From an uncultured Anaerolineales bacterium (GTDB lineage: Bacteria > Chloroflexota > Anaerolineae > UBA7937 > B3-Chlor), in contig CAZBJW010000003.1 in NCBI GenBank assembly GCA_964492135.1, positions 9,364-73,363 on the forward strand: DNA of 64,000 bases, written 5' to 3'. The position numbers and the translations under genes were made by a program. The notes beneath the pieces are model-generated. The model saw only the letters and a program-made list of their open reading frames with translations. It was not told the origin of the DNA and searched no databases. This document shows positions 1 to 17,079 of this stretch, one piece after another (position 1 is the first letter of the stretch; each line of letters begins with the position of its first letter).

Positions 1-733
1 CCATCGGCGCTGCCGAAAGGACAACTGGCATACGCTGTCGGCAAACCTCGATCAACAGCGTCGTCACGTCGGCCGCGAACTTGAGGGGGCTGACTATCCA
101 ACTGGTGATGAAGGAGACGATGGGCCGCTCGCGCAGCGGCTCGGCACCGCCTGAGATGCGCTCACATATCTCCACTACGTCGCGGATGCCCTGGATGGTA
201 TAGACACCGGCCTGGATGTGCTTGGTGGTATTCGCCAGCGCGGCGTAATACTTGTTGATCTCCACCGTCTGCTTTGGCAGGTCGGTGGGGTAGATAGGCA
301 GGAGATAAAAGTGGATGTTCTCCAGCGCGTCCACGATGCGCGCCATATCGGCCACGTCCCGGAGCACCGCCTTGCGGATTCTGCCTGTCTCCAGATCGAG
401 CACCTGCAGCGCCGCGCCACCGGTGCCGATGTGGACCCGCGCTCCCTCGAGGAACAGGTCATGCTCTGGGTCACGGCCGGCCAGCACCACCCGCGACGGC
501 GCTCTGTCTACCGCGTCCTCGACAAGGGACCGGGCCAACCGTACCCGGTTGGCATCTACATCTGCCCCGGCCTTCTTGAATAGCCGCAGCGCCTCGGGCT
601 CCTCCACCTGGACGCCGGTCCGCGCCAGGATCGCCAGCGACGCCTCGTGGATCTGTTTCACCTGCTCGTCGGTGAGCGGCTTATACCGCCCTCCGATCAA
701 GCCTTTGCCCGGTCCTCGGTATTTCTTGGCCAT
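1..733 (-). CDS. MttB-superfamily corrinoid-dependent methyltransferase (glycine betaine MtgB-like by context); first 244 codons only, 3' end lies beyond the window
   Basis: Hand translation of the minus strand from ATG at 733-731 gives MAKKYRGPGKGLIGGRYKPLTDEQVKQIHEASLAILARTGVQVEEPEALRLFKKAGADVDANRVRLARSLVEDAVDRAPSRVVLAGRDPEHDLFLEG... It stays open to position 1, so it has no stop in the window and is absent from the ORF track. The N-terminal pattern is typical of trimethylamine/glycine-betaine methyltransferases. Confidence 0.75.
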   Translation of the reverse strand, partial: MAKKYRGPGKGLIGGRYKPLTDEQVKQIHEASLAILARTGVQVEEPEALRLFKKAGADVDANRVRLARSLVEDAVDRAPSRVVLAGRDPEHDLFLEGARVHIGTGGAALQVLDLETGRIRKAVLRDVADMARIVDALENIHFYLLPIYPTDLPKQTVEINKYYAALANTTKHIQAGVYTIQGIRDVVEICERISGGAEPLRERPIVSFITSWIVSPLKFAADVTTLLIEVCRQRMPVVLSAAPM

Positions 734-850
734 ACGTCTTCCTTCCTTGCTATTAAGAAGCAGATTGACCCACTATCTTCGTCGCATGCCAATAGTGTCA
801 TACTTGCTTGCCCCGCCACCCCGTCCCGCTGACTTATGCTGCTCAGAGCC

Positions 851-1351
851 TCAATGTCTTCCAACCAACTCCACGGTCTGGACAATCTGGTTCAGATGGT
901 CCTCGTCGTGGGCGATCAGACCCTGAACCTGGTTACGCAACGTGGTCGCCGCCAATGTGAGATGGTGCGCCGGGCGCTCCCACGCTTCGGGCGCCAAAGC
1001 AGACAGGAAGGCCACTGTCTTGGCGCGCTCGTCGCGAAAGCTTGCCAGCGTCTCGCCCAACAGGGGAAACAGGTCAGGCATAGAGCGGGGCCAGATGGCC
1101 GGCACCTGCGGGGTATCCTCCGATGCGATGTGCCTCAGCCGGGCACGATAGCGGGGCTCGACATCGCTCAGATGGACTATGACCGCGACAATGCACCACT
1201 CTTCGGGCGACGGCCTGTGACACGCTATATCCTCTTCAACATCGGCTAGCATCTGGGCGATTCTACCGGGCATACAAGCCAGCAAGGCGATCAACGTTGC
1301 ATCGCTGGACGCTACGCTCGATGCATCGCTCTCTGTACACATGTTGACCAC
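851..1351 (-). CDS. DinB-family-like helical-bundle protein
   Basis: 166-aa ORF in the track. His-bearing helices (PAHHLTL, IAHDEDHLNQI) resemble the DinB/YfiT pattern. It is 7 nt from the upstream ADH gene, suggesting co-transcription. Confidence 0.45.
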   Translation of the reverse strand: MVNMCTESDASSVASSDATLIALLACMPGRIAQMLADVEEDIACHRPSPEEWCIVAVIVHLSDVEPRYRARLRHIASEDTPQVPAIWPRSMPDLFPLLGETLASFRDERAKTVAFLSALAPEAWERPAHHLTLAATTLRNQVQGLIAHDEDHLNQIVQTVELVGRH

Positions 1352-1358
1352 ATCTCTT

Positions 1359-2414
1359 TCAACGGATCACGAAGGCCTGCCGCGCCAGTACCTCGACGTC
1401 ATCCCGCTTCGCCGGGCGAGGGTTGGTTCTGGCATTGACGTTCACGACCGCCCGTTCGGCCAGCAGCGGCAGATCCGCCTGGGCGACCTCCACGTCCGGC
1501 ACTGCGAGTTCCGCGAACAACGTGTCCACGTCGCCCCGCACCCGCTCTACCAGCGGTGCGACGCGCGCGAACCTTTGCCCCAACGCTGGCCGGTTGTACT
1601 CCAGCACGGGATCCATACACCGCATCAGTATCAATCCATGGGGTAACTCGTGGTATAGCCCCCCGGTGACGTTACCCATGGCGTGCATCAGCCCTAGCCC
1701 GGCGTGCAGCATCGCAGCGCCCGTGAGCAGGCTGGCCTGCAGCATAGCGCTGCGGGCCGCCAAATCGTCGCCGTGCTCGACCGTCACTCGCAGCTGGGAC
1801 GCGGCCAGTTCCATCCCTCCCAAGGCCAGCGCGTCAGTAATCGGCGTGGCCGCGCTGGAGATGTAGGTCTCCAGACCGTGGATGAAGGCATCGATGCCGG
1901 TGAAGAGGGTGGTCTTTGGGGGCAGGCTCAGCGTCAGTTCCGGGTCGAGCAGCGCTAGGTCCGGCCACTGCGCCACGACACTCTCCTTTTCGCGTCTTTC
2001 GGTGTTGGTGATGACCGCCCAAGGAGAGATCTCACCGCCGGTGCCGGCTGTGGTCGGTACGGTACAGAGAAAGGTGGCGCCACACCGCTTCGCGATGACC
2101 TTGCCTGCGTCCATAGTGCTGCCGCCGCCGGCCGCGAGGACCGCACTGGCGCCCACGATCTTCCCCCGCTCCGCACCGCGTGCTACCGTCTCCCACGAGG
2201 GATTAGGCTCCACCTCGGCGAACGTTTCCACGCGCTCCCAGGTGGCCTCGCGCAGCCGTTTGGCGATGCGCTGCACCAGCGGCCGGGCCCACTCCTCCCG
2301 CGGAGCCACGAGCAGCAGTCGCCCGGCAGTGGCCGACGGGGTTACGTACTCGTCAACCCACTCGATCAGTCCTCGGCCGACCAACGTTCTGGTGGGCCAG
2401 CGGAACTCGTACAT
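1359..2414 (-). CDS. iron-containing (type III) alcohol dehydrogenase family protein
   Basis: 351 aa with a GGGSTMDAGK glycine-rich motif and a conserved His cluster (IHGLETY, HAMGNVTGGLYHELPHG). Confidence 0.85.
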   Translation of the reverse strand: MYEFRWPTRTLVGRGLIEWVDEYVTPSATAGRLLLVAPREEWARPLVQRIAKRLREATWERVETFAEVEPNPSWETVARGAERGKIVGASAVLAAGGGSTMDAGKVIAKRCGATFLCTVPTTAGTGGEISPWAVITNTERREKESVVAQWPDLALLDPELTLSLPPKTTLFTGIDAFIHGLETYISSAATPITDALALGGMELAASQLRVTVEHGDDLAARSAMLQASLLTGAAMLHAGLGLMHAMGNVTGGLYHELPHGLILMRCMDPVLEYNRPALGQRFARVAPLVERVRGDVDTLFAELAVPDVEVAQADLPLLAERAVVNVNARTNPRPAKRDDVEVLARQAFVIR

Positions 2415-2419
2415 CTCAC

Positions 2420-3055
2420 CTATCCCACCAGCGAGCGTGCCAATTCGATCGCCGAGGCCGCATCAGGTGCATAGCCGTCGGCCTCGATTTCACGGGAGAG
2501 GGCCTGGGTGACCGGAGCGCCGCCGATCATCACCTTCACATTATCCCGCAGGCCAGCTTCCACCAGCGCGTCAATCGTGTGCTTCATACTCGGCATGGTG
2601 GTGGTCAGCAAGGCCGACATGCCGACCAGGTCCGGCTGCTCCGTCTTCACGGCCTCGATGAACTTGTCGGGAGGGACGTCAATGCCCAGGTCAACGACCT
2701 CGAAACCGGCACCCTCCAGCATCATCCTCACCATGTTTTTGCCGATATCGTGCAGGTCGCCCTTGACGGTGCCCAGGACAACCTTGCCGGCCGAAGGCAC
2801 ATCGCTCTCGGCCAGCAACGGGCGCAGGATGTCCATGCCAGCATGCATAGCACGGGCAGCAATGAGTACCTCGGGCACAAACAGCTCACCGTCCCGGAAG
2901 TCCACACCAACCCGATCCATCCCGGCAAGGAGGCCATCATTGAGCACCTCCTCCGGCGTCATCCCTTCATCGAGCGCCTTCTGGGTCAGTTCGGCAACCG
3001 CATCGTCTTCACCGTCATACAGTTTCTCCGCGATCTGCTTGAGTATGTCGCTCAT
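2420..3055 (-). CDS. corrinoid (cobalamin-binding) methyl-carrier protein, MtgC/MtbC-like
   Basis: 211 aa with an N-terminal helical cap and a B12-binding Rossmann domain. It carries the DxHxxG motif (GDLHDIGKN) plus SALLTTT and MIGGAP. Confidence 0.9.
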   Translation of the reverse strand: MSDILKQIAEKLYDGEDDAVAELTQKALDEGMTPEEVLNDGLLAGMDRVGVDFRDGELFVPEVLIAARAMHAGMDILRPLLAESDVPSAGKVVLGTVKGDLHDIGKNMVRMMLEGAGFEVVDLGIDVPPDKFIEAVKTEQPDLVGMSALLTTTMPSMKHTIDALVEAGLRDNVKVMIGGAPVTQALSREIEADGYAPDAASAIELARSLVG

Positions 3056-3123
3056 CGGAAATCCTTTCCGGCGCGGATAGCCCCTCCTTCAGGTGTGGGG
3101 AGGAGCGCCGCGATTCTCCTTTT

Positions 3124-3152
3124 TTGCAAAGTTAGCAAATTTGTCCTATACT
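3124..3152 (+). promoter_or_regulatory. sigma70-like promoter match pointing antisense to the methyltransferase genes
   Basis: TTGCAA (3124-3129), a 17-nt spacer, then TATACT (3147-3152), read directly. No plus-strand gene lies downstream, so its function is uncertain. Confidence 0.25.
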
Positions 3153-3488
3153 GTTTGTAGGGTCGCAAGGCACTCCGCACGGCGGAGAAACGGCTTTTGC
3201 ACCTTAACAAGCGGAGGTAACGGGTTCTGCACACGAATCGCTGTGCGGGTAAAACCCTCGGCGTCAGGCTTAGCCTGTAACTCGCGGCGGATATTCTCCG
3301 TCGGGCTGTTGTCAACCAGCCATACGTCTCGGACACAGGACCTCCTGTGGCGCCAGGGACAAGCCCCTGGATTTATCTGTGGGGTAGTTGACTGTTCCTG
3401 CATCCTTTCTCGGGCACGTTAACTGGTAGATGCGTCGAGCGGGAGATAGACGCCCAATCCATCACTTCCCCATCTACGAATCCACCCC

Positions 3489-4391
3489 CTATCGCTTTTT
3501 CCGCCTCTTGCGATAGTGCTTGATGTACCTCATCGCGAACTCGTCCCGTCCCAGGAGTAGATCCACCGCCAGGACGGCCTCTCTGACCCTGGCCGCATTG
3601 ACGATAGGGGCATTGACGCCCTCTCTGATCGCCATTACCAGGAACGCCCAGTTGAGCACCTCGCGGTCCGGTAGACCGAAGGAGACGTTGCTGGCCCCCA
3701 GCGTCATGTTGACCCCCAGTTCAGCCCGAACCAGGCGGCTGGCCTCCAGCGTGACCAACGCAGCTTTGGAGTCGGACGCCACTGTCAGGGCCAGGCAGTC
3801 GATCAGGACGTCTTCGTGGGGGATGTCCAGAGCCTCGGCTCGTTCAACGATCTTGCGGGCGATCTCCAACCGTGTGTGGGGGTCGTCAGGGATGCCTCCC
3901 TCGTCCATACACAAGCCGATGACCGCCGCTCCGTGCTCGGCCACGAGGGGCAGCACCTGTTCCAGGTTCTTTTCCTCACCATTGATCGAGTTAACCAACG
4001 GCTTGCCCTGGTAGACTTCCAGGGCGGCGGCCAAGGCATTAGGGTCTGGCGTATCGATGCTGAGGGGAACCTCTACCACCTCCTGGATCATCTCCACAGC
4101 ACGGGGCAGCAGCGCCACCTGATCCACCCCGACGGCGCCCATGTTAACATCAATCACGTCGGCGCCAGCGGCCACCTGGTTCTGAGCCTCGCTCTTGACG
4201 ATCTCCACGTTGCCCGCCACCAATGCAGCCGCCAGTCCCTTGCGCCCGGTGGGGTTGATCCGCTCGCCGATGAGCACTGTAGGGCGATCGGGAGCAATGC
4301 GAACGGTACCTTTTGTTCCCTTGAGAACGGTCTCCATGGCTCTCAACCCTTCTGTACCAATGGAGTCTTGGGCAACGATCGGGCCGACCAC
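3489..4391 (-). CDS. methylcorrinoid:tetrahydrofolate methyltransferase (pterin-binding domain; MtgA/AcsE/MetH-like)
   Basis: 300 aa with IGERINPTGRK and DVIDVNMG, typical of pterin-binding TIM-barrel methyltransferases. The true start is probably the internal Met (METVLKG) at 4337. Confidence 0.85.
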   Translation of the reverse strand: MVGPIVAQDSIGTEGLRAMETVLKGTKGTVRIAPDRPTVLIGERINPTGRKGLAAALVAGNVEIVKSEAQNQVAAGADVIDVNMGAVGVDQVALLPRAVEMIQEVVEVPLSIDTPDPNALAAALEVYQGKPLVNSINGEEKNLEQVLPLVAEHGAAVIGLCMDEGGIPDDPHTRLEIARKIVERAEALDIPHEDVLIDCLALTVASDSKAALVTLEASRLVRAELGVNMTLGASNVSFGLPDREVLNWAFLVMAIREGVNAPIVNAARVREAVLAVDLLLGRDEFAMRYIKHYRKRRKKR

Positions 4392-4438
4392 GACCAGCGG
4401 TGGCCGGCCCTCGCGTTACCTCTGACCTGACGGATGCG

Positions 4439-5398
4439 CTAATCGCCGCAACTCTCGATCAGGTCGTTCTCCAACAGGAAGTTGCAGGCCACATCCCGCG
4501 GGTCCTGCTCGTCGCCGGTGTCTAGCTCATTGTCAGCGCCCACATCAACCAAGGCGTTCAGCTGAGTCATAGTCTCGGTGTCAAGAGCGGAAGCGATGGG
4601 AGCCAAGATATCCTTGATCTCGGGGTACTTGTCCAACACCTCTTTGCGAACCACCGGTGCAGGGTTGTAGATGGGGAAGAAATGCTGATCATCCGCTAGG
4701 TTAAAGAAGCCCCAAGCAGCGATGCGCCCGTCGGTAGCGAAGCCCATGGCCACATCGCACTCCCCATCGCGCAGAGCCTTGTAGGTCACCCCGATCTCCA
4801 TAGTGGTCACGTAGTCCTCGTTAAACTGGAACCCGTAGGCTTCCGCCATGGCGGGGTAACCATCGGGCCGCACCGTCCACTCCATATCGCTGCAAAGTCG
4901 GGCGTTGGGGTTCTCGGCCAGATATGCGCCCAAGTCGGAGAGGGATTCTACGCCGTACTGCTCTCCCGCTTCCTTGGTCATCATCAGGGTATAGGTGTCG
5001 TCGAAGGGAGCGTAGTCCAGCCAGATCAAGCCCTTCGCCGCGTCCTCGCCTGCAACCTTGTCGAAGATCTCCTGTGGGTCGGTGATCGATTCCTCATGAC
5101 CCAGGTGTACCATCCAGGCAGTACCCGTGTACTCCCAGTAGAGATCGACCTCGCCGGCCTCCAAGGCCTCACGGTTCACCACTGTCCCGCCCAGGTCTAT
5201 CTGGTTGCCAACGGTGAAGCCGGCCTCCTCCAGAGCCAGGACGGTCATCCACCCCAAGAGATACTGCTCCGTGAAGTTCTTAGAAGAGACGACGATGGGG
5301 CCCTTAGGAGCCGCAGTAGGGGTAGCGGCTGGAGCACAGCTGGTTGCCAATAGGCCCAGCACGGCCAACAAGACTAGAATCGTCAAGCACTTTCTCAT
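4439..5398 (-). CDS. glycine betaine/choline-type ABC transporter substrate-binding lipoprotein (OpuAC family)
   Basis: 319 aa with a signal peptide and lipobox (LLATSC). Aromatic-rich OpuAC-like segments are present (LYWEYTGTAW, PFDDTYTL). Confidence 0.8.
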   Translation of the reverse strand: MRKCLTILVLLAVLGLLATSCAPAATPTAAPKGPIVVSSKNFTEQYLLGWMTVLALEEAGFTVGNQIDLGGTVVNREALEAGEVDLYWEYTGTAWMVHLGHEESITDPQEIFDKVAGEDAAKGLIWLDYAPFDDTYTLMMTKEAGEQYGVESLSDLGAYLAENPNARLCSDMEWTVRPDGYPAMAEAYGFQFNEDYVTTMEIGVTYKALRDGECDVAMGFATDGRIAAWGFFNLADDQHFFPIYNPAPVVRKEVLDKYPEIKDILAPIASALDTETMTQLNALVDVGADNELDTGDEQDPRDVACNFLLENDLIESCGD

Positions 5399-5527
5399 CT
5401 CTTTCTCCCTTCCATCTGAGTATCACTTCTCAACGGTTCGAACCTCCCTCATCTTTCTGCCTCACATGCTGACCACCTCCGGTAACTCGTAAACGATTTT
5501 CCACTGCTTCTTGGATGATTAGAGTAA

Positions 5528-6286
5528 TCAATGAGGGGGTGCCACAAGCGCCTCCACCTTACCCATGATAAAATCGAGGAGCATGGCAAAAACGGCGGTG
5601 AGGGTGCCGCCGGTGATGACCATAGCGTTTCGCCTAACGCGGATCCCAGTGGCGATGGGCTGCCCTAAAGTTGGCCAACCGATAAAAGTGGCCAGGGCGG
5701 CAGTGCCCACATTGATGACCACCGCCGTGCGGATGCCGGCGAAGATAACCCTTAGAGCCAGAGGGATCTCGATCCTGGTCAATATCTGGCCCTGGGTCAT
5801 CCCCATCCCTCGCGCGGCCTCTATAATAGCCGGATCCACCTCTTCGATGCCCACAGAGGTATTGCGCACTATCGGCAGAAGAGCGTAAAGCCAGAGGGCG
5901 AAGATGGAGGGCTTTAGACCGAGGCCCAGAAAGATATACGATAGGCCCAGGATGGCCATGCTCGGTACAGTCTGACCTATGTTTGCCAACCCCAAGATCA
6001 GCCCCGCGAAATCCTTGAAGCCCGGGCGGGTGATAAAAATGCCTGCCGGTATGCCCACCAAAATGGCCAGGGACGAGGCTATCAGGATCACCTGTATGTG
6101 CTTTATCGTGAACTTGATGAGGTGGTGCGGGGTTACGACCCTGGAATCCATGGTCCCCGGTTGGACCCTGGCGATCACGAGGAGATAGAGAAGCGCTATG
6201 GCGACGACGCATAAGCTGGGTACGATGAGCCAGCCCAGAATGTCTTGAAGGGTGATTCGCTTGTGAGATTGACGGCTCTTGCCCAC
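5528..6286 (-). CDS. osmoprotectant ABC transporter permease
   Basis: 252 aa, multi-TM, with an EAA-type loop (IIEAARGMGMTQGQILTRIEIPLA). Confidence 0.85.
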   Translation of the reverse strand: MGKSRQSHKRITLQDILGWLIVPSLCVVAIALLYLLVIARVQPGTMDSRVVTPHHLIKFTIKHIQVILIASSLAILVGIPAGIFITRPGFKDFAGLILGLANIGQTVPSMAILGLSYIFLGLGLKPSIFALWLYALLPIVRNTSVGIEEVDPAIIEAARGMGMTQGQILTRIEIPLALRVIFAGIRTAVVINVGTAALATFIGWPTLGQPIATGIRVRRNAMVITGGTLTAVFAMLLDFIMGKVEALVAPPH

Positions 6287-6290
6287 CGGC

Positions 6291-7415
6291 CTACACCCCT
6301 CCTCTCTCGGTATAGGTCTCTCCCGCGTACTTTTGCAGGGCGCTAGAGGTGATGAGCCCCCTCAGCCGGGTCTCGTCGTCCACGACGCAAACGTAGCCGA
6401 TGTCGCAGGTCAACATCTCCGATAGAGCGTCCTTTAGGGTGGCCTCCATCCCCACCGTGGTGGCTACTGGATGGACTACGTCGCTGATCCAGCCCCTCTT
6501 CCCTTGGAGGGTCTTCCACGACACATAACCCTTGAGCACTCTGCCAGGATCGATAACCAAGAGGTTGTCCACATTCTCTTTTCGCATGTACTCCTCCACC
6601 TCTTCGATGCTCTGCGTCGTCATGGCGGTGAAGGGGTGATCGTCCATCACCTCATATACCCGCACCAGGTTTAGCCGCTTCAGGGTGCGGTCAGCCCCCA
6701 CAAAATCCTCGACGAACCTGTTGGCCGGATAGGCCAGGATCTCATCTGGGGTCCCATATTGCTCTAGGATGCCCCCCACCTGGAGTATAGCGATCTTGTT
6801 CCCCATCTTGATGGCCTCATTGATGTCATGGGTGACGAATATCACCGTCTTCTTCAGTTTCTCTTGCAGTCGTAGGAATTCATTTTGCAGCCGCTCTCTA
6901 GTTATGGGGTCGATGGCTCCAAAGGGCTCATCCATCAGCATCACCGGCGGATCAACACCCAACGCTCTCGCCACGCCGATCCGCTGCTTCTGGCCGCCAG
7001 ACAACTCATGAGGATAGCGGTTGCGGAATTCGGCAGGCTCCATGCCCATCAACCTCAGAAGTTCGTCGACCCGCGCGCTTATCCTCTCCTTGTCCCAGCC
7101 GAGAAGGTTGGCCACTGTAGCGATGTTATTCGTGATGGACATATGGGGGAAAAGGCCGATCTCCTGGATGACGTAGCCTATGCCTCGCCTCAATTCGATG
7201 GGATCCATCTTGGTGACATCCTTGCCGCCCACGTAGATGGTGCCACTGGTGGGCTCTATGAGCCGGTTCACCATCTTCATGGTAGTTGTCTTCCCGCAGC
7301 CTGAGGGGCCCACTAGGACACAGGTCTCGCCTTCAGGAACTTCCAAAGTCAAATCGGTCACCGCACATTCCGACTGACCGGGGTATATCTTGGTCACGTG
7401 CTCGAATCTGATCAT
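6291..7415 (-). CDS. osmoprotectant ABC transporter ATP-binding protein with C-terminal CBS pair
   Basis: 374 aa with Walker A GPSGCGKTT, signature LSGGQKQR and Walker B VMLMDEP. A C-terminal extension of about 120 aa looks CBS-like. Confidence 0.9.
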   Translation of the reverse strand: MIRFEHVTKIYPGQSECAVTDLTLEVPEGETCVLVGPSGCGKTTTMKMVNRLIEPTSGTIYVGGKDVTKMDPIELRRGIGYVIQEIGLFPHMSITNNIATVANLLGWDKERISARVDELLRLMGMEPAEFRNRYPHELSGGQKQRIGVARALGVDPPVMLMDEPFGAIDPITRERLQNEFLRLQEKLKKTVIFVTHDINEAIKMGNKIAILQVGGILEQYGTPDEILAYPANRFVEDFVGADRTLKRLNLVRVYEVMDDHPFTAMTTQSIEEVEEYMRKENVDNLLVIDPGRVLKGYVSWKTLQGKRGWISDVVHPVATTVGMEATLKDALSEMLTCDIGYVCVVDDETRLRGLITSSALQKYAGETYTERGGV

Positions 7416-7431
7416 AGGTCTCCCCCCTAAA

Positions 7432-8844
7432 CTAGGCTCTTTCTTCTCGCAGCCCCACCGGCGTGAGGAAGGTCTGAGCCCGTCCTAGAAGGTAATCTAC
7501 CAGTATGGCGAAGATGGAAACGCCCACCGCCCCGGCGAGCACCATCCTATCGCTGATCCTGCTTAAGCCATCGAATATGAAATCACCCAGGTTATCGACT
7601 CCGATGAGGGTGCCGATGGCGGCGATGCCCACGATCATGACCACGGAGACCCGCACGCCGGCCATGATAACCGGCACGGTCATCGGCAACTTGACCTTAA
7701 ATAAGAGCTGCCATTCGGTCATCCCCATACCTCTCCCCGCCTCGACAATGGCTGGGCTGACGTTTTTGATGCCGGTATAGGTGTTGCGCAGTATGGGCAA
7801 TTGGGCGTAGAGGATGAGGGCCACGGCGACGTTCAGGAAACCGATGCCGAAGAGGGGAATGAATAGGCCGAAGAGGGCGATGCTGGGTATAGTCAACATG
7901 ATACCAGCGGCGTAGAGCATGGACTCTGCCGCCCTCTCCCCGAGAATGAAGAGGAGGTAGAGGAGGAGAATCAATACGATCCCTATCAGGCTCATGCCTT
8001 GTGGCCTGGGCAGGGTACTCTTTAGCCAATCCGCTGTGGCCTCACCGAAGATCCCTCCTGAGCCAAGATAGAGGAGGATGAGGAGGGCGAGGGGCAACAA
8101 CAGTAGGAGATGGGAAAGGTGTGGGCGCCGAGGTGGCAAGGTGATTAGAATGCCTATGATCACCCCTAATACGATGGCGATGACCATGGAGAAGAGAACT
8201 AGCCAAGCGTGCTGGAGGGTCAAGTCGAGGAGTTTCTCCCTCTCCCCCCACATGTAGTAGACGTTGGTGGTGATGACATTCTCCACCCCGGTGACGAAAA
8301 ACCCTACCACAACTAAGATGGTCCACCCCAACAAAGCCACTCCCAGGACCCTTATGACGTCGCTGGCTAAGAGGTCATGGGCTGCCTGGAGGGCGAAGAG
8401 GAGAAGGAGAGCCCCATAGGCGATAGTAAGGATTTGAATGAATTGAATGATGCCCACTTCTTTGAGAGGATCCAGAACAGCGGCAGCGAACCCAACCCTT
8501 CCAGAGACCGCGATGATGAGGCTCAGAGGTACAACGAACAAAGAGAGGAGGTAACTCTGCTCTGCGAAATCGCCGCTGCCGCCAAACAACTTGACTATGA
8601 TATACAAGATAAAAGAGGCTATGAAGAATTCGGTGGCCGTGAAGAAGATCCAGCGGATCAGGCTTATCAGGATAGCCATCGCTGGGTCGGCTATACGTAT
8701 GGAGACTAGGCCTCCCACAAAGCCGGCGATGGCCAACCCCAGGACGGTTTTCAAAGGATCGGCTTTGCTCTTCTCATCCCCAAAAGCGTCAACGCTAGGC
8801 TTGGTCAGAACGTTTATCCAGCCGTAGAGTAGCTCCTGAAGCAC
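7432..8844 (-). CDS. fusion protein: N-terminal Yip1-like multi-TM domain plus osmoprotectant ABC permease domain
   Basis: 470 aa with a GTG start. The first ~200 aa are TM-rich and not permease-like (WINVLTKPSVDAFGDE...). The C-terminal half has the permease EAA loop (IVEAGRGMGMTEWQLLFKVKLPM). Confidence 0.75.
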   Translation of the reverse strand: MLQELLYGWINVLTKPSVDAFGDEKSKADPLKTVLGLAIAGFVGGLVSIRIADPAMAILISLIRWIFFTATEFFIASFILYIIVKLFGGSGDFAEQSYLLSLFVVPLSLIIAVSGRVGFAAAVLDPLKEVGIIQFIQILTIAYGALLLLFALQAAHDLLASDVIRVLGVALLGWTILVVVGFFVTGVENVITTNVYYMWGEREKLLDLTLQHAWLVLFSMVIAIVLGVIIGILITLPPRRPHLSHLLLLLPLALLILLYLGSGGIFGEATADWLKSTLPRPQGMSLIGIVLILLLYLLFILGERAAESMLYAAGIMLTIPSIALFGLFIPLFGIGFLNVAVALILYAQLPILRNTYTGIKNVSPAIVEAGRGMGMTEWQLLFKVKLPMTVPVIMAGVRVSVVMIVGIAAIGTLIGVDNLGDFIFDGLSRISDRMVLAGAVGVSIFAILVDYLLGRAQTFLTPVGLREERA

Positions 8845-9022
8845 AGACCCTCCAACCCTAGAGATCTATCTCGGACTGAGACGCTCCACTCCTCTTCCCC
8901 TTTTTGCAGCGTGTGCCTTTTGTCCCTCATTATGCAACTACGCTGCGATTCGTGAAACGATTGTACTCACTGTTTCCTAGTTATCGAACAGAGCATCGCA
9001 GCGAGACGGCGCTGAAAGCTGC

Positions 9023-9703
9023 TTACTTTGAAGCTTGAGTGCCCAGACGCCAGAAGGCTCCCTCTTCTTGGATAACGCGCTCTAGAATGGCCTCGTGGGT
9101 TTCGTTGATTTCATTGAGTATTGCCTGGCGGGCTGTCGCAACGTCACGGGTGCGCAGTGCCTCAATGATGAGCGCGTGCCTGGGCTCCAGCGTCTCGCCA
9201 GCGCGGCACAGGACCATGAAGCGGGCCAACCGGTCGTGCAAGCGGCCCAACATCTCCGCTAGTTCTTGGTTGCCCGATGCCTGAGCGATTAGGTAGTGGA
9301 AACGCCGGTTCTCGTCCATGTAACGGTCGTAGGATTCATCGTCCTCGCCAGTGTAGCCAGCGTGGACGTGTTCGAGTTGCTGAAGCTGCTCCTCAGTGAT
9401 CCGGACCACGGCTCGCTCGATGGAGGCCACTTCGAGGATCTCGCGCAGTTCGAGCATGTCGCGCAACTGCTTCAGGGTGATGCGGGTGACAAAGTAACCC
9501 GAGCGGGGCTTGATCGATACCAACCCTTCCTGACTGAGCATCTGGAGTGCGTCGCGCACCGGCGTGACGCTGGTACCGTAGCTCTCGGTCAGTGCATCCA
9601 GATCTAGCCTCTCACCTGGCTCGCGATGTCCCACGATGATGGAACGACGAAGCTCCGTGTAAATCAGGTTCTTCGAGGTATCACCTTGTTTCGAACGAAG
9701 CAT
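9023..9703 (-). CDS. GntR-family (FadR/FCD subfamily) transcriptional regulator
   Basis: 226 aa with a winged-helix N-terminus (ERLDLDALTESYGTSVTPVRDALQMLSQEGLVSIKPRSGYFV) and an all-helical FCD-like C-terminal domain. Confidence 0.9.
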   Translation of the reverse strand: MLRSKQGDTSKNLIYTELRRSIIVGHREPGERLDLDALTESYGTSVTPVRDALQMLSQEGLVSIKPRSGYFVTRITLKQLRDMLELREILEVASIERAVVRITEEQLQQLEHVHAGYTGEDDESYDRYMDENRRFHYLIAQASGNQELAEMLGRLHDRLARFMVLCRAGETLEPRHALIIEALRTRDVATARQAILNEINETHEAILERVIQEEGAFWRLGTQASK

Positions 9704-9770
9704 TAACGCAACTCCCTGCTAGGCCCACAAACATTAATAAAACATCAGGTAAGGTCCCTATTAATATCAA

Positions 9771-9799
9771 ATTATATCTTATAATACACCAGATGTCAA
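9771..9799 (-). promoter_or_regulatory. perfect-consensus sigma70 promoter for the GntR gene
   Basis: The minus strand reads TTGACA (9799-9794), a 17-nt spacer, then TATAAT (9776-9771). This lies about 65 nt upstream of the start at 9703, inside an AT-rich intergenic region. Confidence 0.6.
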
Positions 9800-9815
9800 G
9801 ATATGATGTATCTTG
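9797..9815. promoter_or_regulatory. 7-bp perfect inverted repeat overlapping the -35 box (candidate GntR operator)
   Basis: CAAGATA-tgatg-TATCTTG read directly; it overlaps TTGACA at 9794-9799. Confidence 0.35.
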
Positions 9816-9890
9816 TAGCCTGTTGCGTAATAATTGGAGCTCAATTGCCCGAACCATTAACCAAAGAGGAGGATAACACACATGAAAAGA

Positions 9891-9921
9891 GTTAGACGGA
9901 AGATTGCGTCTTCCGTCTAAC
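9891..9921 (+). other. 12-bp perfect stem-loop
   Basis: GTTAGACGGAAG-attgcgt-CTTCCGTCTAAC read directly, followed by a pyrimidine-rich tract. It overlaps a 12-codon mini-ORF. Confidence 0.4.
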
Positions 9922-9934
9922 TCCTGTTCTACAT

Positions 9935-10019
9935 GGACCTGTGGTGAAACCCGGTCGACACACCTGACTCCAAATCAGGCGTCCTGGCGGACATGCGGAT
10001 TCGAATCCCGCCAGGCCCA
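9935..10019 (+). tRNA. type-II (long variable arm) tRNA-like gene with anticodon loop CTCCAAA (CCA); probably a degenerate tRNA-Leu-like pseudogene
   Basis: Hand-folded 85-nt cloverleaf. Acceptor GGACCTG/CAGGCCC has one A-C mismatch. The D arm (GTG..GG..CAC) resembles tRNA-Leu. Anticodon stem is CCTGA/TCAGG. The variable arm is GTCC-tggc-GGAC. The T arm GCGGA-TTCGAAT-CCCGC has an A-C mismatch at 53:61. Discriminator is A and no CCA is encoded. Confidence 0.5.
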
Positions 10020-10150
10020 CTGAGTGAGCGGACAACTCCCCCTGTTCCTTGATGGGGTCAAGGCAAGCGTCCTACCAACGGGAGTGCACTCATTGGCAAT
10101 TGTTAGTATTGCACAGGAACGGCCTTTAGTCAAGGGGCCTGAGAAAGTTC

Positions 10151-11169
10151 TACGGACCTCGGTACCAGGTGAGGAAGAACCTCATCTTCTGGTATCGTAG
10201 AGATGGCATATTCTCTACAGCGAGGTCCGTATGCTCACATATTACCACCTCTGGCGAATGAATCCAAGAGAAGCCCGACGGATCCTAATCAAAGACTATC
10301 AGGAGACCAAAAGCTACTCTCAGACGGCCAGGAACTTCAGCACCCATCGTCGCATCGCCCGCAAGTAGGTCTTAAGATACCAAGAGCAAGGGGAGAGGGG
10401 TTGGAGAGCCTACCCCCTATCCCCAAGAGCCAACCTACCCGCTTAGACCCCCAACTGGAGAGGCTCATCTTACATCTCAGGGATTCCTCGGGCTTTGGAC
10501 CCAAACGCCTCCACTACTGGCTGAAGAGGAACCTCAAGATAGAGATCGCTACCTCTACCATTGCCAAGTACCTTCACAAGCATGGCCAAACCAAAAAGCA
10601 CCTAAGAAGGAGAGCCGCTAAGAGCTTCGATTGGAAAAGCCTCCCTCTATTCTCTGCCCTACAGGTGGATACTAAAGAGATCATAGATACCAATACCTTC
10701 ACCCAGGAGGAGAAAGGGCTTTACAAGCGCCTGGGGCTCCCTCTCTACCAATTTACAGCCATCTTCCCTAGGATTAGAGCTAGATTTATCTCCTACTCTT
10801 TCCAGAATACCAAGAGGGCCTCTTTGAACTTCCTAGAGTATCTCTTTTCTCATCTGGAGAGCCATGGTGCTCCCTTTGAGGAGACCATCTCCTTCCAGAA
10901 CCTCAAAGACTTCATGCTCAAAGCCTCTGAGTGGATCTACTACTACAACTACGACCGCTCTCACGATGGTTTAGGAGGGCCTGTCCTGGCTGGGTTAGGC
11001 CAGGGAAGAGCCCTGCTGAGGCTCTGAGGGAGATAGACCCAAAGTTGCCATCCTTACAGGATCCCGAGGGAAAAGAGATCCTCTTCTTGTCTCCCATCAT
11101 CTTATACGTAAAGTATCCCTGTGGGAGACGATAGAATCACTCTCCTAGGGGGTGGTACCGAGATCTATA
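10151..11169 (+). mobile_element. decayed IS element (DDE/rve transposase, IS481/IS3-like) with imperfect terminal inverted repeats
   Basis: The left end TACGGACCTCGGTACCA (10151-10167) matches the reverse complement of the right end TGGTACCGAGATCTATA (11153-11169) at about 14 of 17 positions. The repeats enclose the transposase remnant. Confidence 0.5.
10231..11134 (+). pseudogene. transposase pseudogene (HTH plus rve integrase core)
   Basis: The HTH part MLTYYHLWRMNPREARRILIKDYQETKSYSQTARNFSTHRRIARK ends at an in-frame TAG. The sequence continues in another frame (LESLPPIPKS...LHLRDSSGFGPKRLHYWL...QVDTKEI...) and ends ...YNYDRSHDGLGG, with a further shift to SPAEALRE. The catalytic core looks internally deleted. 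Confidence 0.65.
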
Positions 11170-11289
11170 GATATTACACCTCGTGTACGTTAACAAGGTA
11201 CACAGAACAGAGCTCTGTCTAAGGGAGATTTTGAACAGAGTGGCGCAGAGAGATATGTAGCCTGCACGGTTCGGTCAAACCTCGCGTTC

Positions 11290-11601
11290 GTGTCTCGCCG
11301 GTCAGTGGAGGAACGAGCCGCAAGCCGGAATTCTTGGGCTCAAACTAGTCGCATCCGAGGTACCGGTGATCCTCAACATACTTCACTCCATGTGCACACC
11401 AAGCGGCGGGGACACTCCACCATAGGCCACCCTGATTCTGACAGGGGTCGCAACGTTCTTTCGCAATCGGCCTCGCGTCTCCGCAAGAAGATAGGGGTAG
11501 ACCCAGCGCTTCCCAGGGTCATCATAACTCACCACCGCCAGGGATATTCTTTCGCTGGCAAGGAAGAGGCGCGGTGGTTTCCGGAATTGCAAGCATCATG
11601 A
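11290..11601 (+). pseudogene. remnant of an OmpR/CadC-type winged-helix DNA-binding domain
   Basis: The C-terminal motif RLRKKIGVDPALPRVIITHHRQGYSF is typical of Trans_reg_C. There is no receiver domain and no credible N-terminus. It lies directly downstream of the IS remnant. Confidence 0.5.
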
Positions 11602-11776
11602 TGAGCCAGCGTCAAGCCCCTTTCTCGGTAAGGACACCTCTCTTCAACTACAGAGCATATCCCATAAGGGGCTTCATCTAACGTTGAAGCCTAGCCCCTT
11701 GCACCCGCCATTCAGCCGTGTTAGAGTAGAGGGCACAAGCAGTATCTACTATTGCACTGGGGCAAATGTCATCATC

Positions 11777-11880
11777 TGGTGACAGAGTGGAAGAAGGAGT
11801 GTGAGGGTGTGGCCAAGGTGAGAGAAGACACGGAAGAGATCGCACTTCGGAGTAGTAGCGCCGTTTTAGTGAGCTGCGCC
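11777..11880 (+). repeat. degenerate copy of the 5' part of the winged-helix gene; direct repeat of 13103-13200
   Basis: TGGTGACAGAGTGGAAGAAGGAGTGTGAGGGTGTGGCCAAGGTG... aligns by eye with TGGTGACAGTCTGAAGGCCGCAGTGTGAGGTTGTGGCCACGGTA... at 13103. Confidence 0.45.
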
Positions 11881-11903
11881 GACGCAGAATATCGGCGTGA
11901 TAT

Positions 11904-13076: not shown

Positions 13077-13116
13077 GAGGTACCACCAGTAGTTTCACTC
13101 TTTGGTGACAGTCTGA

Positions 13117-13296
13117 AGGCCGCAGTGTGAGGTTGTGGCCACGGTAAACGCACGGGATGAGCCAATACACCTTACACCAATGGAGTGTCGCTTGATGAAC
13201 TGCCTAGTTCGCAGTCCAGGACAAGTTGTCACTCACAAGGAACTGCTAGAGGCGATAGGCCACCCTATCTCTAGCCAGGGTCGATTGGGTGTATGA
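13117..13296 (+). pseudogene. 5' fragment of an OmpR/CadC-type winged-helix domain, truncated at the recombinase junction
   Basis: Hand translation gives RPQCEVVATVNARDEPIHLTPMECRLMNCLVRSPGQVVTHKELLEAIGHPISSQGRLGV*. The LTP.E..L...L...PG.V pattern is typical of Trans_reg_C, and the C-terminal wing is missing. Confidence 0.5.
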
Positions 13297-15674: not shown

Positions 15675-15737
15675 TTTTTTCGTGGTACCCTTTCCCTTAT
15701 CCTGGTTTTGTTGAGATTTCGATTTACTTAACTAATA

Positions 15738-16218: not shown

Positions 16219-17079
16219 TCAGCGGGGGCCAAGGTTCTTGAAAATCGCTTTGACCGATGCGGAACGGTTCAGGCAGTAGAAGTGAATGCCCGGCACGCCC
16301 TGTTCCAAAAGGTCGAGAGATTGCTGAGTAGCGTAGTCGATGCCCAGTTTTCGCACCGCGTCGTCATCGCCCAGGCGCTCCAGGTCGCGCACCAGGTTAG
16401 GCGGGATGGTAGCCCCCGAGAGGGCGGCAAAGCGTTTCACCTGGGTCAGGTTGAGGATGGGTAGGATGCCGGGGATGATGGGGACGTTGATGCCTATCCT
16501 TTGGGCGCGCTCCACAAAGTCGTAGAAGTAGCGGTTATCGAAGAAGATTTGGGTGATGACGAACTCACCACCGGCGTCCACTTTCTGCTTGAGGTGTCGC
16601 AGATCCTGCTCTTTGTCCGGGCACTCGATGTGCCCTTCCGGGTAACCGGCCACCCCGATGCCGAAATCGTAGCGCTCTTTGATGAGGTGAACCAGCTGGT
16701 AGGCATAGTGGAAGGTGTTCCCGATTGGGGCTGATGGTGCTTCCTGTGGCCGGTCTCCGCGCAGGGCTAGGATGTTCTCCAGGCCCAGGTCACGGGCCAT
16801 GTCTAGGTCCTGGATAATCTGCTCTTCGGTGGCGCCGATGCAGGTGAAATGGAACATAGACTCCAGGCCTAACTTCTTCTTCACATGAGCCGCGATCTGG
16901 AAAGCCCTGTCTCGGTTGGTCCGGTCAGGGCGAAAGGTGACGGAGATAAAACTGGGGCCCAGGGCTTTGAGTTCGGTGAAGGTATGGTAGAGTTTGAGGA
17001 TCCTGCGGTCAGTCTGGGGCGGGAAGACCTCAAAGGAATAGGTGAGGGGCGATCGGTCATAGAACTCTCGGATCTTCAT
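16219..17079 (-). CDS. metF: 5,10-methylenetetrahydrofolate reductase
   Basis: MKIREFYDRSPLTYSFEVFPPQT...SFISVTF...ILALRGD...GYPEGH... is typical of MetF. The chosen start at 17079 overlaps the upstream gene's stop (ATGA). Confidence 0.9.
   Translation of the reverse strand: MKIREFYDRSPLTYSFEVFPPQTDRRILKLYHTFTELKALGPSFISVTFRPDRTNRDRAFQIAAHVKKKLGLESMFHFTCIGATEEQIIQDLDMARDLGLENILALRGDRPQEAPSAPIGNTFHYAYQLVHLIKERYDFGIGVAGYPEGHIECPDKEQDLRHLKQKVDAGGEFVITQIFFDNRYFYDFVERAQRIGINVPIIPGILPILNLTQVKRFAALSGATIPPNLVRDLERLGDDDAVRKLGIDYATQQSLDLLEQGVPGIHFYCLNRSASVKAIFKNLGPR

What the first reader, a model, noticed from the sequence alone, without database searches (positions are those of the whole stretch)
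1..9703. Glycine-betaine-type importer physically coupled to a three-component corrinoid demethylation system
An MttB-superfamily methyltransferase (1-733), a DxHxxG corrinoid carrier (2420-3055) and a pterin-binding methyl-THF methyltransferase (3489-4391) lie in one minus-strand array. The same array holds a four-gene Opu-type betaine ABC importer (4439-8844) and a GntR regulator. This is the architecture known for non-pyrrolysine MttB homologs such as the MtgB/MtgC/MtgA system, but here it is packaged with its own high-affinity uptake system. No RamA-type reductive activase is visible. The actual quaternary amine (betaine, proline betaine, carnitine and so on) cannot be deduced from 244 residues.
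Basis: partly seen in the sequence, partly recalled or inferred. Interest (0 to 1): 0.6.

Follow-up and report, generated by a model that had tools for sequence, protein, structure and literature searches.

The report
Corrinoid methyl-amine demethylase operon with importer
An uncultured Anaerolineales bacterium carries an operon that imports a trimethylammonium-type osmolyte and uses vitamin B12 to pass one of its methyl groups to folate; this layout is already known from metagenomes, but the two paired methyltransferases do not look like the glycine betaine enzyme.

Summary

- **Methyltransferase.** The MttB gene runs 730 bases beyond the window. It is 487 aa with no in-frame stop and has Met where M. 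barkeri MttB has pyrrolysine.
A second MttB paralog (34% identical) lies directly downstream, and a third is nearby.
- **Conservation.** The MttB1-MttB2 pair, with the MtgA-like methyltransferase, recurs in about 20 Anaerolineae MAG loci. The two paralogs co-diverge (r = 0.90). The Opu-type ABC importer is attached in six loci.
- **Substrate.** MttB1 keeps one of the four glycine-betaine-binding residues of D. hafniense MtgB, and MttB2 keeps none unambiguously. The Arg kept by all characterised non-Pyl members is Tyr in MttB1 and Trp in MttB2. The binding protein keeps an aromatic box and ProX-like carboxylate contacts. The substrate is therefore unresolved.
- **Rest of the genome.** Two RamA/RACo-type activases, MTHFR, ACS and FTHFS are encoded elsewhere.
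- **Novelty.** Linkage of mtgB-type genes with Opu ABC importers in Chloroflexi was already reported from cold-seep metagenomes.
- **Side finding.** The 433-nt gap inside the operon holds a repeated MITE-like element.

Verdict: an uncharacterised variant of a known kind, of modest interest.

The parts
2..733 (-). MttB1: the N-terminal 244 aa of a 487-aa non-Pyl MttB-superfamily methyltransferase (MT1). The gene continues 730 bases beyond the window start (contig C3:8633-10096). MttB2 (490 aa, C3:7118-8590) follows 42 nt downstream, outside the window.
   Evidence: PF06253 scores 418 bits over the full length. TIGR02369 scores 479, below its cut-off of 525. There is no in-frame stop. Met is at the Pyl334 position.
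851..1351 (-). DinB_2-superfamily protein of 166 aa. Its role is unknown. It holds the same position in two related loci.
   Evidence: PF12867, 51.8 bits. Orthologs at 49-55% identity lie in L011 and L028, directly upstream of MttB1.
1359..2414 (-). Type III iron-dependent alcohol dehydrogenase of 351 aa. It is a conserved neighbour directly upstream of MttB1.
   Evidence: Fe-ADH and ADH_Fe_C Pfam domains. The best solved relatives are NAD-dependent methanol dehydrogenases and 1,3-propanediol dehydrogenases. It is sub-threshold to choline dehydrogenase GbsB (194 vs a cut-off of 550). Orthologs are in L010, L016, L021, L025 and L028.
2420..3055 (-). MtgC-like corrinoid (B12-binding) methyl carrier, 211 aa.
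   Evidence: PF02310 and PF02607. TIGR02370 scores 219.2, above its cut-off of 215.3. NF047996 (MtgC) scores 254, below its cut-off of 370. DLHDIG is at residues 100-105.
3056..3393 (+). A 338-nt repeated MITE-like element inserted directly against the MtgC start codon. It accounts for most of the 433-nt gap between the MtgA and MtgC genes. ORF 3052-3336 lies inside it and is probably not a gene.
   Evidence: Other copies are at C3:6761-7097 (94%) and C4:14449-14786 (99%), with partial copies at two contig ends. All three full copies abut ...TCAT. Relatives have only 18-112 nt at this position.
3489..4391 (-). MtgA-like methylcorrinoid:tetrahydrofolate methyltransferase (MT2), 300 aa.
   Evidence: PF00809, 107 bits. 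NF005719 scores 282, above its cut-off of 259. It lies directly upstream of MttB1-MttB2 in most related loci.
4439..5398 (-). OpuAC-family substrate-binding lipoprotein, 319 aa.
   Evidence: PF04069, 190 bits. Solved relatives are OpuBC-derived sensors, OsmF and A. fulgidus ProX. Signal peptide with Cys21. The aromatic-box and K/T/R positions are invariant in nine linked orthologous domains.
5528..6286 (-). ABC permease, 252 aa.
   Evidence: PF00528. Weak matches to the choline and ProW permease models.
6291..7415 (-). ABC ATPase with C-terminal CBS domains, 374 aa.
   Evidence: TIGR01186 (betaine/proline/choline family ATPase) scores 379.5, above its cut-off of 326.6. PF00571 CBS matches twice.
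7432..8844 (-). Second ABC permease, 470 aa, with a hydrophobic N-terminal extension of about 200-280 residues.
   Evidence: PF00528 matches residues 313-453 only. Extra hydrophobic segments lie at the N-terminus.
9023..9703 (-). GntR/FCD-family transcription regulator, 226 aa.
   Evidence: PF00392 and PF07729. Orthologs at 77-83% identity lie beside the cluster in L012 and L031.
9771..9799 (-). Promoter-like site with a perfect consensus (TTGACA-17-TATAAT), 68 nt upstream of the GntR start.
   Evidence: 12 of 12 consensus positions match. This is a pattern match only.
16228..17073 (-). Context: a methylenetetrahydrofolate reductase gene 6.5 kb away, a plausible outlet for the methyl-THF the system makes.
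   Evidence: PF02219, 288.9 bits, at C3:25591-26436.

Best explanation
**What it is.** The locus is a corrinoid-dependent methyl-transfer operon of the non-pyrrolysine MttB kind, joined to its own importer.

**Proposed steps (all inferred from family membership; nothing was assayed)**
1. An OpuB/OpuC-type ABC transporter takes up a compound with a trimethylammonium head group. It consists of a lipoprotein binding protein with an aromatic box, two permeases and a CBS-domain ATPase.
2. One or both of two co-inherited MT1 paralogs (MttB1 in the window, MttB2 just outside it) move a methyl group from that compound to the Co(I) form of the MtgC-like corrinoid protein.
3. The MtgA-like pterin-binding enzyme passes the methyl group on to tetrahydrofolate.
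4. Methyl-THF then enters the folate branch of the Wood-Ljungdahl pathway through MTHFR, ACS and FTHFS, which are all encoded in the genome.
5. Reductive reactivation of the corrinoid is supplied in trans by one of two RACo/RamA-type proteins on other contigs.
6. A GntR/FCD regulator probably controls the array.

**Substrate.** It is not identified. The binding protein looks like a carboxy-betaine binder of the ProX/OsmF type. Neither MttB has the glycine betaine pocket of MtgB, so glycine betaine is possible but not favoured.

**Origin.** The module is an accessory, patchily distributed unit of Anaerolineae.
For: **Family assignments**
- Four components score above curated cut-offs: MttB (Pfam PF06253), the corrinoid protein (TIGR02370), the pterin-binding methyltransferase (NF005719) and the ABC ATPase (TIGR01186).
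- The corrinoid protein has the DLHDIG motif.
- MttB1 and MttB2 align over their full length to solved MtgB (2qne/9yce) and MttB (7xcl), at 229-283 bits.

**Not pyrrolysine-dependent**
- No TAG lies in any of the five MttB genes of the genome. The single TAG reported lies upstream of the ATG of MttB3.
- No PylD scores above its cut-off.

**Conserved gene order**
- MtgA-(MtgC)-MttB1-MttB2 occurs in about 20 loci. The ABC importer is adjacent in L011, L012, L014, L016, L021 and L025.
- L012 also carries a RACo-type activase in the cluster.
- MttB1 and MttB2 are 34% identical. Their pairwise distances correlate at r = 0.90 across 17 loci, with equal mean divergence.

**Binding protein**
- It keeps Tyr/Tyr/Phe/Tyr at the aromatic-box positions and Lys/Thr/Arg at the carboxylate positions. 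These are invariant in all linked orthologous domains.

**Downstream pathway and activases**
- MTHFR in the window, ACS and FTHFS on C124, and two RACo proteins.

**Operon structure**
- All genes are on one strand. Most gaps are 4-47 nt and three are 117-178 nt; the 433-nt gap holds the repeated element.
Against: - There is no biochemical or expression evidence.
- MT1 pockets differ from MtgB. Of the glycine betaine tetrad Y97/R312/H348/F356 (PMC13080624), MttB1 has G/Y/H/M. MttB2 has S/W/-/G, with an indel at 348 that leaves His or Asp there depending on the alignment. R312 is kept by all five characterised non-Pyl members.
- The binding protein points to a carboxylate-bearing ligand. The two lines of evidence therefore disagree on the substrate class.
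- The importer is absent from many related loci: L013 and L018-L020 have only MtgA-MttB1-MttB2. Coupling is therefore optional.
- A repeated element sits between MtgA and MtgC, directly against the MtgC start codon. It may affect expression of the downstream half of the operon.
- Which of the two MttB proteins is catalytic is unknown.
Confidence: 0.75

Rival explanations
1. It is a true glycine betaine system, functionally the same as MtgB/MtgC/MtgA. Betaine would be imported by the ABC transporter and demethylated to dimethylglycine, with the carboxylate held by residues other than those used in D. hafniense MtgB.
For: - The corrinoid protein's best NCBIfam match is the MtgC model NF047996 (254 bits).
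- The binding protein resembles the betaine binders OsmF and A. fulgidus ProX, and keeps the Lys/Thr/Arg positions.
- Metagenome papers label such Chloroflexi genes mtgB (PMC8547467; PMC11264602).
- Related MAGs come from a cold seep and, judging by isolate names, a salt marsh, where betaine is common.
Against: - MttB1 keeps only H348 of the four residues shown by mutagenesis and a ligand-bound structure to bind betaine. MttB2 keeps none unambiguously. The pattern is invariant across orthologs.
- The MtgC model score is below its cut-off (254 vs 370).
- MttB1 is 33% identical to DhMtgB and 36% to Pyl-MttB. In the quick tree, DhMtgB groups with the S. meliloti homolog, apart from both clades.
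Confidence: 0.25
2. The importer is an ordinary osmoprotectant uptake system that happens to lie next to the methyltransferase genes. It supplies compatible solute for osmotic balance rather than substrate for demethylation.
For: - The CBS-domain ATPase and four-gene layout are those of osmoregulated OpuB/OpuC-type systems.
- The importer is missing from many related loci that keep the methyltransferase core.
- Importer genes have lower G+C (55-59%) than the methyltransferase core (61-67%), which suggests separate histories.
Against: - The same adjacency, strand and order recur in six loci. These span MttB1 identities from 73% to 91%, with the binding protein next to MtgA or MttB1.
- The gap between the binding-protein gene and MtgA is 47 nt.
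- In L012 a GntR ortholog heads the same importer-plus-methyltransferase array, and in L031 one flanks the methyltransferase genes.
Confidence: 0.12
3. MttB1 and MttB2 act on a compound that is not a classical carboxy-betaine. Candidates are choline itself or another non-acidic quaternary amine. Alternatively, the pair carries out two successive demethylations. The conserved Fe-alcohol dehydrogenase and the glutamine-synthetase-like genes seen in several loci would then process the alcohol or amine product.
For: - The Arg that binds the acidic group in every characterised non-Pyl member is Tyr in MttB1 and Trp in MttB2. MttB2 has Asp beside the His at the 348 region.
- An Fe-ADH lies directly upstream of MttB1 in five relatives and has a sub-threshold match to choline dehydrogenase GbsB.
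- Glutamine synthetase-type genes lie in or next to the cluster in L012, L014 and L028, and a GlnA-like gene lies in this contig.
Against: - The binding protein keeps the carboxylate-contact positions.
- The GlnA-like gene here has 47% G+C, is separated from MttB2 by a repeat copy, and is only 28-39% identical to those of relatives.
- Among the 143 nearest superfamily representatives, only 13 have Arg at this position. Its absence is therefore common and not diagnostic.
- E. limosum uses phosphocholine, not choline (PMC12155760).
Confidence: 0.25

Closest known systems
MtgB/MtgC/MtgA glycine betaine:tetrahydrofolate methyl transfer system of Desulfitobacterium hafniense Y51 (PDB 2qne, 9yce)
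   Same: It has the same three protein types: a non-Pyl MttB-family MT1, a DxHxxG corrinoid protein and a pterin-binding MT2. They sit in one cluster. The MT1 aligns over its full length at 283 bits.
   Different: - MttB1 is only 33% identical to DhMtgB.
- Three of the four betaine-binding residues are replaced: Y97G, R312Y and F356M.
- There are two co-evolving MT1 paralogs instead of one.
- An ABC importer, an Fe-ADH and a DinB protein are added.
Methanolobus vulcani B1d mtgB-mtgC with adjacent opuD betaine transporter (PMC6855144)
   Same: The MT1 gene is physically linked to a dedicated uptake system for its substrate.
   Different: The transporter there is a single-component BCCT carrier, not a four-gene ABC system. 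The methyl acceptor is coenzyme M in a methanogen, not tetrahydrofolate.
mtgB/mtgC gene clusters with opuABC, proWX or other ABC importers in Formosa cold-seep metagenomes, many assigned to Chloroflexi (PMC8547467)
   Same: The architecture is the same at the level of annotation: an MttB-family gene, a corrinoid protein and an Opu-type ABC importer. The phylum is also the same. One related locus here, L014, is named as a cold-seep MAG.
   Different: Those clusters were annotated as glycine betaine systems by homology only. No active-site comparison, paired-paralog analysis or biochemistry was reported.
Eubacterium limosum MtpB, MtcB, MtyB and MthB (proline betaine, L-carnitine, gamma-butyrobetaine, phosphocholine)
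   Same: They are non-Pyl MttB-superfamily MT1 enzymes that feed a corrinoid protein and a THF methyltransferase.
   Different: All keep the R312 equivalent for the acidic group of the substrate, whereas MttB1 and MttB2 do not. Their sequences could not be obtained here, so no joint tree was built.
Methanosarcina barkeri MttB, the pyrrolysine-dependent trimethylamine methyltransferase (PDB 7xcl)
   Same: Gly at the G110 position and Tyr at the R312-equivalent position are shared with MttB1. Identity is 36%. In the quick tree MttB1 falls weakly on the same side.
   Different: MttB1 has Met instead of pyrrolysine and His instead of Tyr364. It scores below the TIGR02369 cut-off, and the genome has no PylD.

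Membership tests
MttB superfamily (Pfam PF06253 / COG5598) | Full-length match to the family profile above the curated cut-off | tested here: met
   MttB1 scores 418 bits, MttB2 300 bits and MttB3 392 bits, against a cut-off of 25. All align end to end with solved members.
Pyrrolysine-dependent trimethylamine methyltransferase MttB (TIGR02369) | In-frame UAG (pyrrolysine) at the position of Pyl334 | tested here: not met
   There is no in-frame stop in the 487-aa ORF. Met aligns with Pyl334 in MttB1 and Ala in MttB2.
Pyrrolysine-dependent trimethylamine methyltransferase MttB (TIGR02369) | Score at or above the equivalog cut-off (525 bits) | tested here: not met
   MttB1 479.4, MttB3 488.4 and MttB2 409.1 bits.
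Pyrrolysine-dependent trimethylamine methyltransferase MttB (TIGR02369) | Conserved Gly110 and Tyr364, which activate pyrrolysine (PMC9842639) | tested here: not met
   The Gly110 equivalent is present in MttB1, but the Tyr364 position is His.
Pyrrolysine-dependent trimethylamine methyltransferase MttB (TIGR02369) | Pyrrolysine biosynthesis genes in the genome (pylD tested) | tested here: not met
   The best TIGR03911 match is 22.8 bits against a cut-off of 150. The genome is only 86% complete.
MtgB glycine betaine:corrinoid methyltransferase | Betaine-binding residues Y97, R312, H348 and F356 of D. hafniense MtgB (PMC13080624) | tested here: not met
   MttB1 has G, Y, H, M. MttB2 has S, W, (His or Asp; there is an indel at this position), G. 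The pattern is invariant in all orthologs aligned.
MtgB glycine betaine:corrinoid methyltransferase | Methylation of cob(I)alamin or MtgC with glycine betaine | not testable with these tools
   This needs an enzyme assay.
MtgB glycine betaine:corrinoid methyltransferase | Phylogenetic grouping with characterised MtgB | tested here: inconclusive
   In the quick tree, DhMtgB groups with the S. meliloti homolog 4yyc (support 100), apart from the MttB1 and MttB2 clades. Deep branches are weakly supported, and only three reference sequences were available.
Methyltransferase-cognate corrinoid protein (TIGR02370; MtgC models NF047995/NF047996) | B12-binding and cap domains with the DxHxxG motif, above the subfamily cut-off | tested here: met
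   PF02310 and PF02607. DLHDIG at residues 100-105. TIGR02370 scores 219.2, above 215.3.
Methyltransferase-cognate corrinoid protein (TIGR02370; MtgC models NF047995/NF047996) | Score above the MtgC-specific cut-off | tested here: not met
   NF047996 scores 254.3 against 370. NF047995 scores 203.9 against 310.
Methyl-THF:corrinoid methyltransferase (MtgA/AcsE-like, NF005719) | Pterin-binding TIM-barrel domain above the cut-off | tested here: met
   NF005719 scores 282, above 259. PF00809 scores 107 bits.
OpuB/OpuC (OsmU/YehZYXW)-type osmoprotectant ABC importer | Four genes: an OpuAC-family binding protein, two permeases and an ATPase with CBS domains | tested here: met
   PF04069, two PF00528 proteins, and TIGR01186 at 379.5 (above 326.6) with CBS domains.
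OpuB/OpuC (OsmU/YehZYXW)-type osmoprotectant ABC importer | Aromatic cage for a fully methylated head group in the binding protein | tested here: met
   Y90, Y136, F220 and Y244 occupy the positions of A. fulgidus ProX Y63, Y111, Y190 and Y214. They are invariant in nine linked orthologous domains. The ProX residue numbers come from my own knowledge of the ProX structure papers. The mapping uses the chain offsets, not a structure.
RamA/RACo reductive activase as part of the system | Activase gene in the cluster | tested here: not met
   None lies in C3:1-19100. Two are encoded on C116 and C12. The related locus L012 has one in the cluster.

The most novel reading that the evidence does not exclude
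MttB1 and MttB2 would be an obligate, co-evolving pair: either a heteromeric MT1, or two enzymes for consecutive steps. They would define a substrate class not yet known for the MttB superfamily, such as a non-acidic quaternary amine (for example choline taken directly) or stepwise removal of more than one methyl group. The conserved Fe-alcohol dehydrogenase and the recurrent glutamine-synthetase-type genes would handle the product. If so, abundant sediment Anaerolineae run an undescribed B12-dependent osmolyte breakdown route.
Probability: 0.25. Interest if true: 0.6.

Novelty: new variant of a known kind. Interest (0 to 1): 0.35.

Why it matters
[quoted passage not shown] Anaerolineae are among the most abundant bacteria there.

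Orthologs of this MttB are numerous in public metagenomes: the 120 best protein clusters are all at least 77% identical. Surveys routinely label such genes mtgB or mttB.

This work shows that the label is not backed by the active site. It also shows that the conserved unit is a pair of distant paralogs plus MtgA. Finding the real substrate would change how these genes are counted in carbon and methane budgets.

The system itself (corrinoid methyl transfer plus importer) is a known kind, so the gain is incremental unless the substrate or the pairing proves unusual.

Tried and rejected
- **Pyrrolysine enzyme: rejected.** The '1 TAG' reported for MttB3 lies before its ATG. No MttB gene has an internal stop, and there is no PylD.
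- **Riboswitch or known RNA in the 433-nt gap: rejected.** An Rfam E-value scan of 1-16000 found only a tRNA. The gap is a repeated element.
- **ORF 3052-3336 as a gene: rejected.** It lies inside the repeat and has no family match. The copies differ mostly by non-synonymous changes.
- **GlnA-like gene as part of this operon: doubtful.** It has 47% G+C against 58.4% for the genome, lies behind a repeat copy, and is only 28-39% identical to the synthetase genes in relatives.
- **Fused MttB1-MttB2 proteins as evidence for a heteromer: not found.** None appears among the 150 best representatives.
- **Absence of Arg312 as a rare marker: rejected.** Only 13 of the 143 nearest representatives have Arg there.
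- **Careful maximum-likelihood tree: not finished in time.** The quick tree was used instead.
- **Literature check of the ProX residue numbers: only partly successful.** It confirmed the role of Arg149 only from a paper title, and confirmed the general cage principle.

Full report
**Observation**

- an MttB-family fragment (2-733);
- a corrinoid protein (2420-3055) with the motif DLHDIG at residues 100-105;
- a pterin-binding methyl-THF:corrinoid methyltransferase (3489-4391; NF005719 at 282 bits, above its cut-off of 259);
- a four-gene Opu-type ABC importer (4439-8844);
- a GntR/FCD regulator (9023-9703).

The importer consists of an OpuAC-family lipoprotein, two permeases and an ATPase with CBS domains. 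The ATPase passes the betaine/proline/choline model TIGR01186 (379.5, above 326.6).

Two further genes sit inside the array: a DinB_2 protein (851-1351) and a type III Fe-alcohol dehydrogenase (1359-2414).

Gaps between genes are mostly 4-47 nt, with three of 117-178 nt, apart from one of 433 nt. A perfect sigma-70 consensus lies 68 nt upstream of the GntR gene (a pattern match only).

**Beyond the window**

The window is C3:9364-73363 of a 4.3-Mb MAG in 310 contigs, 86% complete. I read the first 12.5 kb of the contig.
- The MttB gene is complete at 487 aa with no in-frame stop. I call it MttB1.
- A second MttB-family gene, MttB2 (490 aa), starts 42 nt downstream.
- Then come a GlnA-like gene and, on the other strand, a third paralog, MttB3 (480 aa).
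- Two more paralogs on other contigs are orphans, with no corrinoid or transport genes nearby.
- The single TAG reported for MttB3 lies upstream of its ATG.

**Not a pyrrolysine enzyme**

Alignment to M. barkeri MttB (7xcl) puts Met in MttB1 and Ala in MttB2 at the Pyl334 position. All three paralogs on this contig score below the TIGR02369 cut-off of 525. The Tyr364 that helps pyrrolysine work (PMC9842639) is His in MttB1. No PylD is found in the genome.

**Organism and conservation**

Close relatives of MttB1 (70-91% identity) lie in MAGs named Anaerolineales, Anaerolineae or Chloroflexota. The 120 best protein clusters in the large collection are all at least 77% identical.

In about 20 related loci MttB1 is followed by MttB2.
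- MtgA lies directly upstream in most loci, and MtgC in many.
- The ABC importer is adjacent in L011, L012, L014, L016, L021 and L025.
- The Fe-ADH is directly upstream of MttB1 in five loci, and DinB in two.
- L013 and L018-L020 have only MtgA-MttB1-MttB2 among housekeeping genes.
- L012 has the fullest set. It includes a RACo-type activase and a glutamine synthetase inside the operon.

MttB1 and MttB2 are only 34% identical. Even so, their pairwise distances across 17 loci correlate at r = 0.90, with equal mean divergence of 0.264 and 0.263. They are an old, co-inherited pair and not a recent duplication.

In the window's own GTDB order, three of 26 other genomes have an MttB1-like gene (51-54% identity), each directly beside an MttB2 ortholog (68-72%). 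The two same-genus genomes have neither.

The methyltransferase core has 61-67% G+C against 58.4 +/- 2.5% for the genome. The importer has 55-59%. The module is therefore accessory and patchily distributed.

**What substrate?**

A 2026 study defined the glycine betaine site of D. hafniense MtgB by mutagenesis and a ligand-bound structure. The residues are Y97 and F356 (cation-pi) and R312 and H348 (carboxylate). R312 is kept in MtcB, MtpB, MtyB and MthB (PMC13080624).

I fixed the numbering from the 9yce and 2qne alignments and aligned 56 sequences. The residues at these positions are:

| Protein | 97 | 312 | 348 | 356 |
|---|---|---|---|---|
| D. hafniense MtgB | Y | R | H | F |
| MttB1 | G | Y | H | M |
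| MttB2 | S | W | indel (His or Asp) | G |

These patterns are invariant in all orthologs. Pyl-MttB also has Gly at 97 and Tyr at 312.

The membership test for MtgB therefore fails. Absence of the Arg is not rare, however: only 13 of the 143 nearest 50%-cluster representatives have it. The characterised enzymes sample one corner of a family with about 1,900 clusters at E <= 1e-30.

In a quick tree, DhMtgB groups with the S. meliloti homolog 4yyc, apart from the MttB1 and MttB2 clades. MttB1 falls weakly on the side of Pyl-MttB. Identities to every solved member are 28-36%.

**The binding protein**

Its best solved relatives are the Thermoanaerobacter OpuBC-derived sensors, E. coli OsmF and A. 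fulgidus ProX.

I mapped positions using the chain offsets and the ProX residue numbers as I know them from the ProX structure papers. That numbering is not verified here beyond the Arg149 paper title.
- Y90, Y136, F220 and Y244 fill the aromatic box.
- K40, T93 and R177 fill the carboxylate-contact positions.
- All are invariant in nine linked orthologous domains.

The polar contacts point to a carboxy-betaine. This disagrees with the MT1 pockets, and I cannot resolve the conflict.

**How it most likely works**

Import is followed by methyl transfer from the substrate to Co(I)-MtgC by MttB1 and/or MttB2. MtgA then passes the methyl group to tetrahydrofolate.

The genome encodes MTHFR 6.5 kb away in the window (16228-17073), plus ACS and FTHFS on C124. 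Methyl-THF can therefore be oxidised or built into acetyl-CoA.

Two RACo/RamA proteins on C116 and C12 can supply reactivation in trans.

All steps are inferred from family membership and conserved gene order. None is shown experimentally.

**Comparison with what is known**

Linkage of mtgB to a betaine transporter is described for M. vulcani, where the transporter is opuD (PMC6855144). Cold-seep metagenome contigs carry mtgB/mtgC with opuABC, proWX or other ABC importers, many of them from Chloroflexi (PMC8547467). MttB-family genes are also noted as common in Anaerolineae MAGs (PMC11264602).

The architecture is thus already on record. Three points are not on record, as far as the searched literature shows: the conserved MttB1-MttB2 pairing, the failure of the betaine-site test, and the conserved Fe-ADH.

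**Side finding**

The 433-nt gap between MtgA and MtgC holds a 338-nt repeated element.
- Further copies lie downstream of MttB2 (94%) and on C4 (99%), and fragments sit at two contig ends.
- Each full copy abuts ...TCAT, the reverse complement of an ATGA start.
- It has subterminal hairpins and no visible target duplication.
- This resembles an IS200/IS605-type miniature element. A weak Y1 transposase match exists on C253.
- Relatives have 18-112 nt at this site.
- The element separates MtgC from its former upstream region and puts AAAGGA 8 nt before the ATG.

**Verdict**

This is an uncharacterised variant of a known system, of modest interest.

Noticed in passing
window 3056-3393; also contig C3:6761-7097 (L006) and C4:14449-14786 (L038): A 338-nt repeated element with subterminal hairpins. 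Each full copy abuts ...TCAT, the reverse complement of an ATGA start codon. Fragments sit at two contig ends. It is probably an IS200/IS605-type miniature element. The two same-orientation copies on C3 flank MtgC-FeADH-DinB-MttB1-MttB2 (5.3 kb). The copy here lies directly against the MtgC start codon.
   Followed up: partly
window 9935-10020 (+): An 86-nt tRNA-like gene. ARAGORN calls it tRNA-Trp (anticodon CCA) and Rfam gives tRNA 47.6 bits. It is unusually long for a Trp tRNA and lies 232 nt from the GntR gene, at the edge of a patch of decayed mobile DNA.
   Followed up: partly
contig C3:4871-6409 (L006, minus strand; outside the window): A divergent glutamine-synthetase-like gene (512 aa) with 47% G+C, below every 1.5-kb window of the genome. 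Better-scoring glutamine synthetase genes (473 aa) sit inside or next to the MttB1-MttB2 cluster in L012 and L028, and a partial one in L014. This recurrent link has no explanation yet.
   Followed up: partly
L012:7534-9399 and L014:2019-3830: In two related loci the importer's binding protein is a fusion of about 600-620 aa, made of two OpuAC domains in tandem. Both domains keep all cage positions.
   Followed up: partly
genomes G001 (C44:11404-22105) and G012 (C7:8192-17688) of the same family: Arrays of five or six MttB-family paralogs lie in a row on one strand. Each array starts with the MttB2-ortholog plus MttB1-like pair.
   Followed up: no
window 7432-8844 (-): The second permease carries an extra N-terminal hydrophobic region of about 200-280 residues with no Pfam match. 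It is conserved in length in L016 and L021.
   Followed up: no
L038:385-666 and 1137-1364 (contig C4): The C4 copy of the repeat sits between an AbrB/SpoVT-like small gene and what looks like a PIN-domain gene fragment. It may therefore have split a toxin-antitoxin pair at its ATGA junction.
   Followed up: no
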